Source: a phage
Direction: 5' to 3' (one strand)
Sequence record: PZ452578.1
Length of the DNA: 64,000 nt
The notes under the pieces: model-generated
Database searches by the model: none
What the model saw: only the letters and a program-made list of their open reading frames with translations
Told to the model about the DNA's origin: nothing
Made by a program: the position numbers and the translations under genes
In this document: in pieces, positions 4,220 to 56,759 of the stretch
Numbering within the stretch: the first letter of the stretch is position 1
Layout of the letters: every line of letters starts with the position of its first letter

Positions 4220-4525
4220 TTAAATCGCTTTAAATTCTGACGTCTGTGATTTAAAGCGAATGTCGCCTTTGATAACTAGCTCAGCATCAAGACCAAATAC
4301 AACAATGATATGCGCGGAACCTGGATACAGCGTAATGGCAACAGAATCCACCTGGTCTGGAAGCAAAGTGTTCAATACATGAGTCACTTGAGCATGGATT
4401 CGAAGCTCAGCTGCGTTATCAAGTTTTTCAAACATATTATTAGCGATAATTTGGCTAAACACTACTTCTACGATTTTAGAATAAGTCGGAAACATATTTA
4501 CCTCACATAATTTTCTTCGAGCCAA
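4220..4525 (-). CDS. hypothetical protein (101 aa)
   Basis: Track ORF upstream of pseT. Confidence 0.45.
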   Translation of the reverse strand: MARRKLCEVNMFPTYSKIVEVVFSQIIANNMFEKLDNAAELRIHAQVTHVLNTLLPDQVDSVAITLYPGSAHIIVVFGLDAELVIKGDIRFKSQTSEFKAI

Positions 4526-17716: not shown

Positions 17717-18370
17717 TTAATACTTACAAGATTTCACAGTTTCAATGAAAACACTTTTAGCTTTCTGTGAATCAATATTTAAAATTTTTCTATAAGCTTT
17801 TAACTTTATAGAATAATTATTCCAAACTAAATTATCAGTCTGTTCATCATGTTTATCAATTATATTTAAAAACGAATCAAGTAAGATAAATGTCTCAAAC
17901 GAAATTATATTCGATTGAAGCAGTTTAAAAATATAACTTGACTGAACCTTTGGATTATATTCAAAGATTTCTTTAAAAGCAGAAACTTCAACTTTCTTAC
18001 TAAAATAATAAATGTTGCGAATATCTTCTTCAAACTTAAATTTAATTTGCTTTAAGCGTCCGATATATTCACGATAAAACACAAGTGCATCAGCGTCAGA
18101 GATGTCACCAATCCAAGCATCTTGGTTAGCAACAAGATTGCTTATAAAGATTAAAGCAAGTTCCTTTAATTTATATTTTTCTGATAACTTCTGGAAAAAA
18201 TACTTATCCCTTCGCTTTTGATAAGCGGCATCAGACACCCGCATGCACCAATTATACTTAATTACATCATACTTTCCATTCATATGTTGTTTTATCATTA
18301 AGTATAATTTATAAACTGATTTACCATCAATGTATCTTTCACCACCAGCAGGCATGCGGAGTTTAATCAT
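17717..18370 (-). CDS. 59: helicase-loading protein gp59 (217 aa)
   Basis: 217 aa as T4 gp59; position between 32 and 33. Confidence 0.8.
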   Translation of the reverse strand: MIKLRMPAGGERYIDGKSVYKLYLMIKQHMNGKYDVIKYNWCMRVSDAAYQKRRDKYFFQKLSEKYKLKELALIFISNLVANQDAWIGDISDADALVFYREYIGRLKQIKFKFEEDIRNIYYFSKKVEVSAFKEIFEYNPKVQSSYIFKLLQSNIISFETFILLDSFLNIIDKHDEQTDNLVWNNYSIKLKAYRKILNIDSQKAKSVFIETVKSCKY

Positions 18371-54577: not shown

Positions 54578-54777
54578 TTTGAATGCTCTATAATTAATTT
54601 TAAGGCTTCTTCACGCACCAACTTGTCTAATGGTATATGCCCAGTTTTAATTGTGTAAGCTTTGTGGAGCTGATTAGATAAGAGCTCGTATGTGAGCTCT
54701 TTGTCATAATCTTTAAATAGCTGGTCAATACGTTTCTTGCGGGCTTTCTTAAGCTGGCGTTTATTTAAACGAGCCAT
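54574..54777 (-). CDS. hypothetical basic protein (67 aa)
   Basis: Track ORF. Confidence 0.4.
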   Translation of the reverse strand: MARLNKRQLKKARKKRIDQLFKDYDKELTYELLSNQLHKAYTIKTGHIPLDKLVREEALKLIIEHSK

Positions 54778-55295
54778 TAATATCCTCTGTCTTGACGAGC
54801 GAAGTTTTCAGCATTTTTCAGATAATAAAGTTTAAATATTTCTTCAGCTGACATTCCAAGAGCAATGAATTTATTCATGAAAAAGTGAAATTGATCAATC
54901 AGTTCAAATTTAATTTCAAGTTGATCTTCAGGAGATAAATCTTGAATTTTCTTGGATTGCATTTCAGAATAACGTTTCTTCCAAGGTTTCCATACAGCAG
55001 AAGCTTCTTTTTCACCATTACTCATACCACCAAGAGAAGTATATAGCTCGCGAGTTTCGTCTGCGATATAATCGTCTTGGTTTCGCAACCAAGCAAGAAC
55101 TTCTCCTGCAGTTTCAAGTGAATCGGGATGACGATTTGTTTCTGGTTTATCATTAGCCAAACGAATCTGTAAATGCCGCTGCATGTCAAGCATAACCTGC
55201 AGTGGGTCAATATTGTGCATAATATTCTCAGCATATGCACGATTTGCTTTATCAACACCTTCGATCAAATGAGCGCATTCATTAAAGTAAGCCAT
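54777..55295 (-). CDS. 56: dCTPase-dUTPase gp56 (172 aa, MazG-like)
   Basis: ATG 55295 (MAYFNECAHLIEG...) with AAGGAAAAATA SD; track ORF extends to 55388. Confidence 0.75.
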   Translation of the reverse strand: MAYFNECAHLIEGVDKANRAYAENIMHNIDPLQVMLDMQRHLQIRLANDKPETNRHPDSLETAGEVLAWLRNQDDYIADETRELYTSLGGMSNGEKEASAVWKPWKKRYSEMQSKKIQDLSPEDQLEIKFELIDQFHFFMNKFIALGMSAEEIFKLYYLKNAENFARQDRGY

Positions 55296-55329
55296 TATTT
55301 TTCCTTTCAATTCGTGGGTTAGTAGATTA

Positions 55330-55355
55330 ATTATACAATAAATATATAAAGCAAT
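55330..55355 (-). promoter_or_regulatory. candidate middle promoter for gene 56 (MotA box ATTGCTTTA, 11-nt spacer, TATAAT)
   Basis: Consensus-like MotA box and -10; overlaps the SD of the plus-strand ORF. Confidence 0.45.
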
Positions 55356-55366
55356 AAGGAGGACAT

Positions 55367-55567
55367 ATGGTACAAAAATTAATGGCACTTGTTAATGCCA
55401 TCAAAGGTAATAAAAAACGTATAGCTTTTACTATTTCTGCTATGGTAGGAATTTTACTCTGGAACTTTATTTTATCACCTGTTGCAATTGCACATGGTAT
55501 TAATATTCCAGTAGTTACTCTTGATACATTTGTAGATTTAGCATTTGCTTTAGTTGGGTTAATTTAA
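55367..55567 (+). CDS. candidate small membrane protein (66 aa) on the opposite strand
   Basis: AAGGAGG 4 nt before ATG 55367; hydrophobic; stop overlaps gene 61 stop convergently. Confidence 0.35.
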   Translation: MVQKLMALVNAIKGNKKRIAFTISAMVGILLWNFILSPVAIAHGINIPVVTLDTFVDLAFALVGLI

Positions 55568-56592
55568 ATCTTAGCATATTTAGATAGCCGCATTTTAGCC
55601 ATCAACCCCTGTGCAATATTATTTTTCATATATTCCATAATTTGTTCAGGGGTTGCACCTTCCTTTCTAATCATATCATTAACATCTTTTGATTTCCAGG
55701 GAGATTTATCCCAAAACATAACCCTTTCTCCTGCATCAACTAATTTAGTCATTCGTTTGATAGTGTCAGGGTGACGAGGTTCATTATCTAAAACCCACAC
55801 TCGTCTATCTTTAAATGGAACAACTTCTAAGTCTAATTGACCACCCGTAATAGCTATACCATTTTCAATAAAAAGTGAATCTATAGGTCCTTCTAGAACA
55901 TATACATCACCATCTTTAACCCGTTCGACACCATAGATTTTTGTTGCTTCAGGATAAGCTTTGATAGTGATATATTTTTGGGGAGCATCTTTCTTTAATG
56001 CACGTCCTTGAAAAGACTCGGCTTTTCCATTAGCATTATAAATTGGAATAACAAGACGAGGCTCAGGTATTTCCTTTTTATATGTTCCCGGTGCTATGCT
56101 ATTAACCAATTTAGGCCATTCGGTTGTAAACCAAAGATATTTCCATTTATCCTTTGGAATACAACGAGCTTTTACATATTTTATAATTGGATGGTCTTCC
56201 GCCAGTTTATCTAATCGAACACATGACGGAAGAGATTTAATTATTTTCTTCTCAGGTTGTTTAGGAAGTTCTTTAGGTTTTTCTACTGGACGACTTTTAC
56301 CTTTTTCTTTTCTTATTTCAAAGATATACTCACGATATAAATCAGGTTCAAACTCCTTTAAATATATTCCGATTGGTGCATGATAGTTACAGTTATAACA
56401 ATGAATATTTCCTTCATTATTATCACCATAATACCATCCACGAGCTTTATTCTGGTCGGTTTTTGAATCTCCACAAACAGGGCATCTAAACCGCAATTTA
56501 AAAGTTGAACTATTATTTACTTGTGTGAATTTAGGTAAATGAGCTAATGCACGATACGCAAACTCATTATCAATCCAAGGTATTGATGACAT
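55564..56592 (-). CDS. 61: DNA primase gp61 (342 aa)
   Basis: 342 aa; zinc finger CPVCGDS...CYNC and TOPRIM region. Confidence 0.9.
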   Translation of the reverse strand: MSSIPWIDNEFAYRALAHLPKFTQVNNSSTFKLRFRCPVCGDSKTDQNKARGWYYGDNNEGNIHCYNCNYHAPIGIYLKEFEPDLYREYIFEIRKEKGKSRPVEKPKELPKQPEKKIIKSLPSCVRLDKLAEDHPIIKYVKARCIPKDKWKYLWFTTEWPKLVNSIAPGTYKKEIPEPRLVIPIYNANGKAESFQGRALKKDAPQKYITIKAYPEATKIYGVERVKDGDVYVLEGPIDSLFIENGIAITGGQLDLEVVPFKDRRVWVLDNEPRHPDTIKRMTKLVDAGERVMFWDKSPWKSKDVNDMIRKEGATPEQIMEYMKNNIAQGLMAKMRLSKYAKI

Positions 56593-56594
56593 TT

Positions 56595-56759
56595 TTAATC
56601 TTCTTTTTCTTTAGATTCCTCTTTTTTCTTTTTAGGAATCTGTTCAGGACCTTTATTTACTACAGCGCCTGACGTTGTTCCAGTAGAGATATTTTCAGGA
56701 TTACCACCTGAATCTCCAGCGACCATATCTTCTTTAATAAATTCTTTATATGTTTTCAT
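56595..56759 (-). CDS. possible small hydrophilic protein (54 aa)
   Basis: ATG 56759 preceded by the same upstream sequence as the 118-aa ORF; below track cutoff. Confidence 0.35.
   Translation of the reverse strand: MKTYKEFIKEDMVAGDSGGNPENISTGTTSGAVVNKGPEQIPKKKKEESKEKED

What the first reader, a model, noticed from the sequence alone, without database searches (positions are those of the whole stretch)
55296..55567. Opposite-strand small ORF in the 56-61 interval, with no dam-sized ORF
In a region where every other gene is on the minus strand, a plus-strand 66-aa hydrophobic ORF has an AAGGAGG SD 4 nt before its ATG and a stop overlapping the gene 61 stop convergently. In T4 I recall the dam methyltransferase gene lying between 56 and 61; here the interval is only about 270 bp and holds no methyltransferase-sized ORF on either strand. 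A MotA-box promoter for gene 56 overlaps the SD of the plus-strand ORF.
Basis: partly seen in the sequence, partly recalled or inferred. Interest (0 to 1): 0.55.

Follow-up and report, generated by a model that had tools for sequence, protein, structure and literature searches.

The report
Known small late gene beside primase
The plus-strand 66-codon ORF is a real, already catalogued T-even phage gene ("dam.1") of unknown function that probably encodes a small late-expressed membrane protein, and the missing dam methyltransferase is a common, ordinary variant also seen in phage T6.

Summary
A 66-aa ORF lies at 55367-55567 (+), with AAGGAGG 4 nt before its ATG. Its TAA shares a TTAA with the stop of primase gene 61. 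No dam-sized ORF lies between genes 56 and 61.

None of this is new. The protein is identical to RB14 ACP30675.1 (RB32ORF030w, similar to RB69ORF029w, "dam.1" in T4T and T6; PHROG 2024, unknown function). T4 itself carries the intact ORF between dam and 61, but RefSeq NC_000866 does not annotate it.

The gene is under purifying selection (dN/dS about 0.15-0.2). Relatives sit in the same convergent position beside primase in at least eight further genera.

An ATAAATA late-promoter core is kept just upstream of the SD in all 25 loci examined except Merlin (ATTAAATA). The window has AATAAATA at 55337-55344. The same variant precedes the holin gene t in this window, and t, 15, inh and 49 in RB18. 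So this is probably a gp55-dependent late gene, which would explain its strand.

The protein is predicted to be a single-pass, N-in membrane protein. Its function is unknown.

Dam is accessory. About a third of Tequatrovirus records carry it, while T6, RB14 and RB18 lack it, and the whole RB18 genome has no Dam homologue. Interest is low to moderate.

The parts
55367..55567 (+). dam.1 / RB32ORF030w ORF: 66 aa plus stop, predicted small inner-membrane protein
   Evidence: ORF listing. PHROG 2024, E 1.4e-31. Identical to ACP30675.1, seen on 259 contigs. dN/dS about 0.15-0.2. Variable columns by codon position 9/2/15, p = 0.008.
55356..55362 (+). Shine-Dalgarno AAGGAGG, 4 nt before the ATG
   Evidence: Read from the sequence. 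A GGAG/GGAGG core is kept upstream of the ATG in every genus examined.
55337..55344 (+). Late-promoter-like AATAAATA (T4 consensus TATAAATA); expected transcription start near 55350
   Evidence: One of only 13 [AT]ATAAATA sites on both strands of the window. Others precede genes 34, 36, t, soc and 32. The same variant precedes t, 15, inh and 49 in RB18. The ATAAATA core is conserved in 24 of 25 loci examined. The activity itself is inferred.
55347..55354 (-). MotA box (TTGCTTTA on the - strand) of the gene 56 middle promoter
   Evidence: Sequence. Corresponds to the mot-box of T4 P(M)16.53 annotated in X01416.
55330..55335 (-). -10 hexamer TATAAT of the gene 56 middle promoter, 11 nt downstream of the MotA box
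   Evidence: Sequence. T4 counterpart annotated in X01416.
55564..55567 (.). TTAA shared by the convergent stop codons of dam.1 and gene 61
   Evidence: The same 4-nt tail-to-tail overlap is present in Mosigvirus, Gaprivervirus (b copy), Dhakavirus, Marfavirus, Kanagawavirus and Moonvirus loci.
55379..55404 (-). Terminator-like hairpin plus U5 on the - strand, about 160 nt downstream of the gene 61 stop, inside dam.1 codons 5-13
   Evidence: Consensus scan. RNAfold dG -12.4 kcal/mol. Present in Tequatrovirus; by eye it is not evident in Mosigvirus or Gaprivervirus.
54777..55295 (-). Gene 56, dCTPase/dUTPase
   Evidence: phrog_173, E 2.4e-44. RB14 and RB18 annotation.
55564..56592 (-). Gene 61, DNA primase
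   Evidence: phrog_47, E 7.9e-107. RB14 and RB18 annotation.

Best explanation
The ORF is the T-even gene catalogued as dam.1 / RB32ORF030w / RB69ORF029w (PHROG 2024).

Shown by the analysis:
- It is a real protein-coding gene under purifying selection.
- It is conserved in the same convergent, stop-overlapping position beside the primase gene across many Tevenvirinae genera.

Inferred:
- It is probably a late gene. A gp55-type late-promoter core (AATAAATA, 55337-55344) lies 12 nt upstream of the SD, inside the spacer of the divergent MotA-dependent middle promoter of gene 56. That middle promoter is the homologue of the T4 oriA primer promoter.
- Late RNA polymerase (gp55/gp33/gp45) would start near 55350 and make a short-leader mRNA. 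Because the two stop codons overlap, this mRNA must run on antisense into gene 61.
- The product is predicted to have a cytoplasmic basic amphipathic N-terminus (net +5), one transmembrane helix (about residues 20-42), and a short acidic periplasmic loop and helix. The invariant motif is W-N-x4-P-x5-G-x3-P-x-V.

Speculative, with low confidence: its job is most likely at the cell envelope late in infection, for example lysis timing or membrane integrity.

The absence of dam is the common state. The slot between gene 56 and dam.1 is variable and can be empty or hold dam, dam plus a PHROG 8706 ORF, or a homing endonuclease.
For: Identity:
- PHROG 2024, E 1.4e-31.
- Annotated as RB32ORF030w in RB14 and RB18, and as dam.1 in T4T and T6.
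- Exact protein is ACP30675.1, found on 259 contigs.
- 693 phage records by tblastn, plus 135 records of a paralogous b type.

Coding:
- dN/dS mostly 0.07-0.3 among 12 distinct Tequatrovirus sequences.
- Variable columns by codon position 9/2/15 (p = 0.008) and 37/15/46 (p = 0.0004).
- Between genera, dN is 0.15-0.49 while dS is about 1 or more, or saturated.
- The ORF is intact in all 25 loci examined.

Late promoter:
- Only 13 [AT]ATAAATA sites occur in the window's 128 kb of two strands. Others precede genes 34, 36, t, soc and 32.
- In RB18, AATAAATA precedes genes 15, t, inh and 49.
- The ATAAATA core lies 5-12 nt upstream of the SD in 24 of 25 loci, although the flanks are unalignable and its position relative to the - strand MotA box shifts between genera. 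Marfa and Kosakonia phage 305 have the canonical TATAAATA. Merlin has ATTAAATA.
- Nolan et al. 2006 report that A or T is common at -13 of late promoters in T4-like phages (PMC1524935).

Membrane protein:
- Hydropathy and charge distribution.
- AlphaFold2 mean pLDDT 82, helices 2-12, 16-42 and 52-63.
- Nolan et al. predicted a TM at residues 21-41 for RB69ORF029w.

Dam is accessory.
Against: - No transcript, ribosome or peptide evidence was available. No paper in the searchable library mentions the gene by any of its names.
- The late-promoter match is 7 of 8. T4 itself has GATAAATA and Gaprivervirus has CATAAATA, variants with little precedent.
- Nolan et al.'s HMM did not call a late promoter on this strand in RB69.
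- There is no Pfam, NCBIfam, PDB or informative structural match, so the function is a guess.
- In T6 the first ATG is ATT, so the exact start, or the level of expression, may differ between phages.
Confidence: 0.8

Rival explanations
1. The ORF is not translated. Its conservation reflects nucleic-acid features instead: the terminator or 3' region of gene 61 on the minus strand, the overlapping promoters, or origin-related sequence.
For: A terminator-like hairpin for minus-strand transcripts lies inside codons 5-13. The promoter region of the oriA homologue abuts the ORF. T4 RefSeq, JS10 and PEi20 annotators did not call the ORF.
Against: dN/dS is about 0.15-0.2 and changes are biased to the third codon position. 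The frame is intact and the SD is kept down to about 20-30% amino-acid identity across genera, with eight invariant residues. By eye, the hairpin is not evident outside Tequatrovirus. No Rfam family matches.
Confidence: 0.07
2. The main role of the plus-strand promoter is to make late antisense RNA across the 3' part of gene 61, shutting down primase expression late. On this view the small protein is secondary.
For: The stop codons overlap, so there is no room for a terminator between the genes, and this layout is conserved in many genera. No canonical intrinsic terminator was found on the + strand in 54700-56700. Only a long-range stem lies at 55603-55655.
Against: Antisense function alone does not explain protein-level constraint or the conserved strong SD. 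In DK-13 a homing endonuclease gene separates the ORF from primase without loss of the ORF. The two roles are not mutually exclusive.
Confidence: 0.12
3. The locus records a recent deletion of dam in this phage, so the arrangement is a derived oddity with consequences for GATC methylation.
For: T4 and T2 have dam here. The homology with T4 breaks exactly around the promoter region, at window 55336-55355.
Against: The dam-less arrangement is the majority in Tequatrovirus: 182 Dam records against about 503 dam.1 records. It is shared by T6, RB14 and RB18 and is the state in Mosigvirus, Gaprivervirus and Dhakavirus. The slot also holds other cargo, such as a homing endonuclease or a PHROG 8706 ORF. 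Dam therefore looks like an acquired accessory cassette.
Confidence: 0.1
4. The protein is a holin or holin-like lysis protein, as one UniProt entry for a homologue is labelled.
For: One homologue (phage vB_EcoM_OE5505) is named 'Holin' in UniRef and BFVD. The protein is small, has a TM segment, and probably has a late promoter of the same AATAAATA type as gene t.
Against: It matches no holin family in Pfam, PHROGs or NCBIfam. Every other source calls it hypothetical. These phages already encode the T holin. The label is probably automatic.
Confidence: 0.1

Closest known systems
dam.1 / RB32ORF030w / RB69ORF029w (PHROG 2024), hypothetical protein of Tevenvirinae
   Same: Identical protein to RB14 ACP30675.1. 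Same size, same position between genes 56 and 61, same strand, and the same stop overlap with primase.
   Different: Nothing differs. This is that gene. The family has no assigned function and is not annotated in T4 RefSeq NC_000866, JS10 or PEi20.
T4 late genes driven by gp55-dependent TATAAATA promoters, such as t, 15, inh, 49 and soc
   Same: An (A/T)ATAAATA motif lies 18-30 nt before the ATG with a strong SD. The orientation is clockwise, as for most late genes. The AATAAATA variant is the same one that precedes t, 15, inh and 49 in RB18.
   Different: It is embedded alone in an otherwise leftward early/middle region. The promoter is nested in the spacer of a divergent middle promoter. T4's own copy has G at the first position. 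Late timing has not been demonstrated.
T4 Dam (GATC N6-adenine methyltransferase) cassette between genes 56 and 61
   Same: Same chromosomal slot.
   Different: It is absent here. There is no Dam homologue in the window or in the complete RB18 genome. T6 lacks it at this locus too.
Small T4 membrane proteins such as Imm, Ac, RI and the T holin
   Same: Small size, a predicted inner-membrane location, and scattered positions among unrelated genes.
   Different: No sequence or fold similarity to any of them was detected. Imm and Ac lie on the early/middle strand, whereas this gene appears to be late.

Membership tests
PHROG 2024 (dam.1 / RB69ORF029w family) | Significant full-length match to the family profile | tested here: met
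   E 1.4e-31, residues 2-66 against profile positions 1-65 of 65. Mosigvirus and Gaprivervirus a and b types also match.
PHROG 2024 (dam.1 / RB69ORF029w family) | Position: opposite strand, convergent with the primase gene and overlapping its stop | tested here: met
   TTAA overlap at 55564-55567. The same layout occurs in 8 other genera.
PHROG 2024 (dam.1 / RB69ORF029w family) | Conserved residues W32, N33, P38, G44, P48, V50 and G64, and one TM helix preceded by a basic cluster | tested here: met
   Ten-sequence alignment across genera. Hydropathy and charge. AlphaFold2 helices.
T4-type late gene (gp55/gp33/gp45-dependent) | TATAAATA at -13 to -6 upstream of the gene | tested here: inconclusive
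   AATAAATA is a 7 of 8 match. The same variant precedes t, 15, inh and 49 in RB18. The ATAAATA core is conserved across genera, and is canonical TATAAATA in Marfa and Kosakonia phage 305. A or T at -13 is reported for T4-like phages. Nolan et al. did not predict a late promoter here in RB69.
T4-type late gene (gp55/gp33/gp45-dependent) | Transcript appears late and depends on gp55/gp33 and DNA replication | not testable with these tools
   The T4 dRNA-seq TSS table of bioRxiv 10.1101/2024.04.04.588121 is not held as text.
MotA-dependent middle promoter (for gene 56) | MotA box (a/t)(a/t)(a/t)TGCTT(t/c)A near -30, plus a sigma-70-type -10 hexamer about 12 bp downstream and no -35 | tested here: met
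   ATTGCTTTA, an 11-nt spacer, then TATAAT on the - strand. Corresponds to T4 P(M)16.53 (ATTGCTT...TATAAT) as annotated in X01416. Activity was not tested.
Dam-family GATC methyltransferase | Sequence homology to T4 Dam anywhere in the sequence available | tested here: not met
   tblastn best E 4.6 in the window and 0.056 in the whole RB18 genome. The remaining 100 kb or so of this phage's own genome was not available.
Holins | Membership of a recognised holin family, or demonstrated hole formation that controls endolysin release | tested here: not met
   No holin family hit in Pfam, PHROGs or NCBIfam. The only 'Holin' label is one UniRef name. Function is not testable here.

The most novel reading that the evidence does not exclude
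A late-expressed membrane microprotein is conserved beside primase in many Tevenvirinae genera but is missing from the T4 reference annotation, so studies that rely on that annotation would not score it. On this reading it is an unrecognised player in late envelope events such as lysis timing, lysis inhibition or membrane integrity. In addition or instead, its obligatory read-through transcript acts as a late antisense switch on primase mRNA.
Probability: 0.15. Interest if true: 0.55.

Novelty: already known. Interest (0 to 1): 0.28.

Why it matters
As it stands this is housekeeping. The ORF is a catalogued hypothetical gene, and the lack of dam is a routine accessory-gene polymorphism.

The modest value lies in three points:
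- The T4 reference annotation (NC_000866) omits an intact ORF whose homologues are selectively constrained, so T4 datasets that rely on that annotation would not score it.
- The conserved late-promoter core explains why a lone gene points the "wrong" way in an early region.
- A late promoter is nested in the spacer of the oriA-type middle promoter, and the stop codons overlap with primase. Together these make a compact case of temporally separated convergent transcription that could be tested easily in T4.

Tried and rejected
- Large-database protein search and exhaustive HMMER search. These found only close relatives, two diverged clusters (Mosigvirus and Gaprivervirus types) and spurious repeat proteins, with no informative names.
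- Pfam and NCBIfam: no hits.
- Foldseek of the AlphaFold2 model. BFVD returned only family members plus a 33%-identical protein from Enterobacter phage CIP9. PDB returned nothing meaningful. The afdb50 library was unavailable.
- Paralogue search in the window and in RB18: none beyond the locus itself.
- Rfam scan of 54700-56700: only a chance snoRNA hit at E 0.32.
- Sigma-70 promoter scan: no more sites than in shuffled sequence, and none suitably placed for the ORF.
- Literature searches for dam.1, RB69ORF029w, RB32ORF030w, T4Tp032, T4 ribosome profiling and T4 Dam distribution: nothing specific.
- Miller et al. 2003 is not held. The T4 dRNA-seq TSS table is not held as text.
- The old T4 record X01416 annotates neither the ORF nor a counter-strand promoter.
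- I considered that the ORF might be a remnant or replacement of dam. This is rejected because T4 and T2 carry both genes.

Full report
**What is in the sequence**

The window is a Tequatrovirus (T-even) genome segment. Over 54700-56700 it is closest to RB18, RB14 and RB32-type phages, at 98.5% identity.

- Gene 56 (dCTPase) is 54777..55295 on the minus strand.
- Gene 61 (primase) is 55564..56592 on the minus strand.
- The 268-bp interval between them holds one ORF: 55367..55567 on the plus strand, 66 aa.
- AAGGAGG lies at 55356-55362, four bases before the ATG.
- The ORF's TAA shares the tetranucleotide TTAA (55564-55567) with the stop codon of gene 61.
- No other ORF of 30 aa or more lies wholly inside the interval, and T4 Dam finds nothing in the whole window by tblastn.

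One detail needs correcting. The MotA box of the gene 56 middle promoter (TTGCTTTA, reverse complement of 55347-55354, followed by an 11-nt spacer and TATAAT at 55335-55330) abuts the SD rather than overlapping it. That promoter is the counterpart of T4 P(M)16.53, the promoter whose transcript primes oriA according to the GenBank annotations.

**The ORF is already catalogued**

- It matches PHROG 2024 (unknown function) over its full length, E 1.4e-31.
- It is annotated as RB32ORF030w ("similar to RB69ORF029w") in RB14 and RB18, and as dam.1 in T4T and T6.
- The exact 66-aa sequence is RB14 protein ACP30675.1 and occurs on 259 contigs. Every source calls it hypothetical.
- T4 itself carries the intact ORF at 97% amino-acid identity, in the 310-bp stretch between dam and 61 at about 17738-17938. 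RefSeq NC_000866 leaves this stretch unannotated. The exact T4 variant is found only in raw assemblies, not as an NCBI protein.

So the ORF does not replace dam. T4 and T2 have both genes.

**The ORF is a real coding gene**

- Among 12 distinct Tequatrovirus sequences, pairwise dN/dS is mostly 0.07-0.3, and the replacements are conservative (V/I, N/S, N/D).
- Variable alignment columns fall 9/2/15 by codon position in Tequatrovirus (p = 0.008), and 37/15/46 in Mosigvirus plus Gaprivervirus (p = 0.0004).
- tblastn finds the protein in 693 phage records: Tequatrovirus at 90-100% identity, Mosigvirus at about 55%, and Gaprivervirus at 44-50%.
- A paralogous "b" type is found in 135 further records, covering Gaprivervirus, Dhakavirus, Marfavirus, Kanagawavirus and Moonvirus. 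A structural search also found a 33%-identical protein in Enterobacter phage CIP9.
- In every locus I fetched, the ORF is on the strand opposite to its neighbours and convergent with primase. Except where a homing endonuclease gene intervenes (DK-13), its stop overlaps the primase stop by 4 nt, either directly or through the tandem b copy.
- A ten-sequence alignment across genera, with identities down to about 20-30%, keeps M1, W32, N33, P38, G44, P48, V50 and G64.
- An open 66-codon frame has a chance probability of about 0.011 at this composition.
- No Rfam family matches the region.

**Why the ORF points the other way**

In T4, early and middle genes run leftward and late genes mostly run rightward (PMC1524935). 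Twelve bases upstream of the SD lies AATAAATA (55337-55344), one mismatch from the T4 late-promoter consensus TATAAATA.

- [AT]ATAAATA is rare: there are 13 sites on both strands of the 64-kb window. Several others lie just upstream of genes 34, 36, t (which has the AATAAATA variant), soc and 32.
- In the complete RB18 genome, AATAAATA followed by an SD and ATG precedes genes 15, t, inh and 49, all of them genes with late expression, as well as this ORF.
- Nolan et al. report that A or T is common at -13 of late promoters in T4-like phages.
- The ATAAATA core is kept 5-12 nt upstream of the SD in 24 of the 25 loci examined, although the surrounding sequence is not alignable. The variants are:
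  - AATAAATA in dam-less Tequatrovirus, Mosigvirus and JS10;
  - GATAAATA in T4 and other dam-bearing phages;
  - CATAAATA in Gaprivervirus and PEi20;
  - canonical TATAAATA in Marfa and Kosakonia phage 305;
  - ATTAAATA in Merlin, the one exception.
- The core's position relative to the minus-strand MotA box changes between genera: inside the spacer here, overlapping the box in Gaprivervirus, and upstream of it in Mosigvirus. In T4 it is about 900 bp away from that promoter. Its position relative to the ORF stays constant. This argues that the motif serves the plus-strand gene.

I conclude that dam.1 is probably a gp55-dependent late gene. This is inference. No transcript data could be consulted, and Nolan et al.'s HMM did not call a late promoter here in RB69.

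**What the product looks like**

- The N-terminal 19 residues are amphipathic and carry a net charge of +5.
- Residues 20-42 are strongly hydrophobic.
- The C-terminal 24 residues carry a net charge of -2 and form a hydrophobic/amphipathic helix.
- AlphaFold2 (mean pLDDT 82) gives helices 2-12, 16-42 and 52-63, with the conserved H-G-x3-P-x-V loop between the last two.
- Nolan et al. predicted one TM at residues 21-41 for RB69ORF029w.

By the positive-inside rule, the likely topology is N-in/C-out. The invariant residues would then lie at the periplasmic end of the TM helix and in the loop.

There is no Pfam, NCBIfam, PDB or informative BFVD match. One homologue is labelled "Holin" in UniRef, but nothing supports that label. 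The function is therefore unknown. A role at the envelope late in infection is my best guess, held with low confidence.

**Consequences of the layout**

Because the stop codons overlap, a late plus-strand transcript must continue antisense into gene 61. No canonical plus-strand terminator was found. Only a long-range stem lies at 55603-55655.

On the minus strand, a terminator-like hairpin (dG -12.4 kcal/mol, followed by U5) lies at 55404-55379, inside dam.1 codons 5-13.

A regulatory antisense role for the late transcript is possible, but it is not needed to explain the data, and it does not account for the protein-level constraint.

**The missing dam**

The stretch between gene 56 and dam.1 is a variable slot:
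- empty in this window, RB14, RB18, T6, phiC600P9, ECP2301, Mosigvirus, Gaprivervirus and Dhakavirus;
- dam alone in T4;
- dam plus a PHROG 8706 ORF in T2, BF15 and CHD2BS1;
- a homing endonuclease in vB_Eco-B1.1.

T4-type Dam at 90% identity or more occurs in 182 records, against about 503 records with dam.1 at 90% or more.

The complete RB18 genome has no Dam homologue (best E 0.056) and no annotated methyltransferase.

About 100 kb of this phage's own genome is outside the window, so a dam gene elsewhere cannot be formally excluded. Nothing suggests one.

**Verdict**

The finding is accurate as an observation but ordinary in meaning. The ORF is a known hypothetical gene, and dam is a common accessory-gene polymorphism. 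The useful by-products are the case for a conserved late promoter, the wide conservation of the primase-convergent arrangement, and the gap in the T4 reference annotation.

Noticed in passing
L002 (T4 NC_000866) 4239-4439, which is T4 genome 17738-17938 (+); also L026 (JS10) 701-901 and L030 (PEi20) 686-871: The reference T4 RefSeq record, and the JS10 and PEi20 records, leave this intact and conserved ORF unannotated. T4T, T6, T2, RB14 and RB18 annotate it.
   Followed up: yes
window 55379-55404 (-): A terminator-like hairpin (dG -12.4 kcal/mol, followed by UUUUU) for minus-strand transcripts leaving gene 61. It is embedded in codons 5-13 of the plus-strand ORF. By eye it appears specific to Tequatrovirus.
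   Followed up: partly
whole window; L021-L024 (RB18 genome): GATC is strongly under-represented: 68 observed against about 212 expected in the window, and 188 against about 557 in RB18. RB18 encodes no Dam and none is found in the window. From memory, selection against GATC in enterobacterial phages has been described before.
   Followed up: partly
L007 1495-1901, L012 and L013 1995-2401 (Gaprivervirus); hits H157, H182, H185-H187: Gaprivervirus carries two tandem paralogues of the small gene (a type, then b type). The b copy overlaps the primase stop. It looks truncated or degraded in several isolates (VR7, SP18, TH57, TH22, TH40, DK-13).
   Followed up: partly
L032 (T6) about 1732-1932: In T6 the first codon of dam.1 is ATT instead of ATG, behind the same AAGGAGG. 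The record therefore starts the CDS at Met6. Either ATT initiates translation or T6 makes a 61-aa form without an evident SD.
   Followed up: no
window 55330-55354: The late-promoter-like AATAAATA lies inside the 11-nt spacer of the divergent MotA-type middle promoter of gene 56, the homologue of the T4 oriA primer promoter. Two promoters of different temporal classes therefore share about 25 bp.
   Followed up: partly
window 55603-55655 (+): A long-range 9-bp GC-rich stem (CAACCCCUG ... CAGGGGUUG) in the plus-strand RNA within the 3' end of gene 61. It could pause or end the dam.1 transcript. Its conservation was not examined.
   Followed up: no
L017 850-1410 (-), L020 841-1401 (-), L031 742-1287 (locus + strand): A 181-186-aa ORF of unknown function (PHROG 8706) travels with dam in T2, BF15 and CHD2BS1 but is absent from T4.
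   Followed up: no
window 29831 (+): The likely late promoter of the holin gene t in this phage is the AATAAATA variant, not the canonical TATAAATA.
   Followed up: partly
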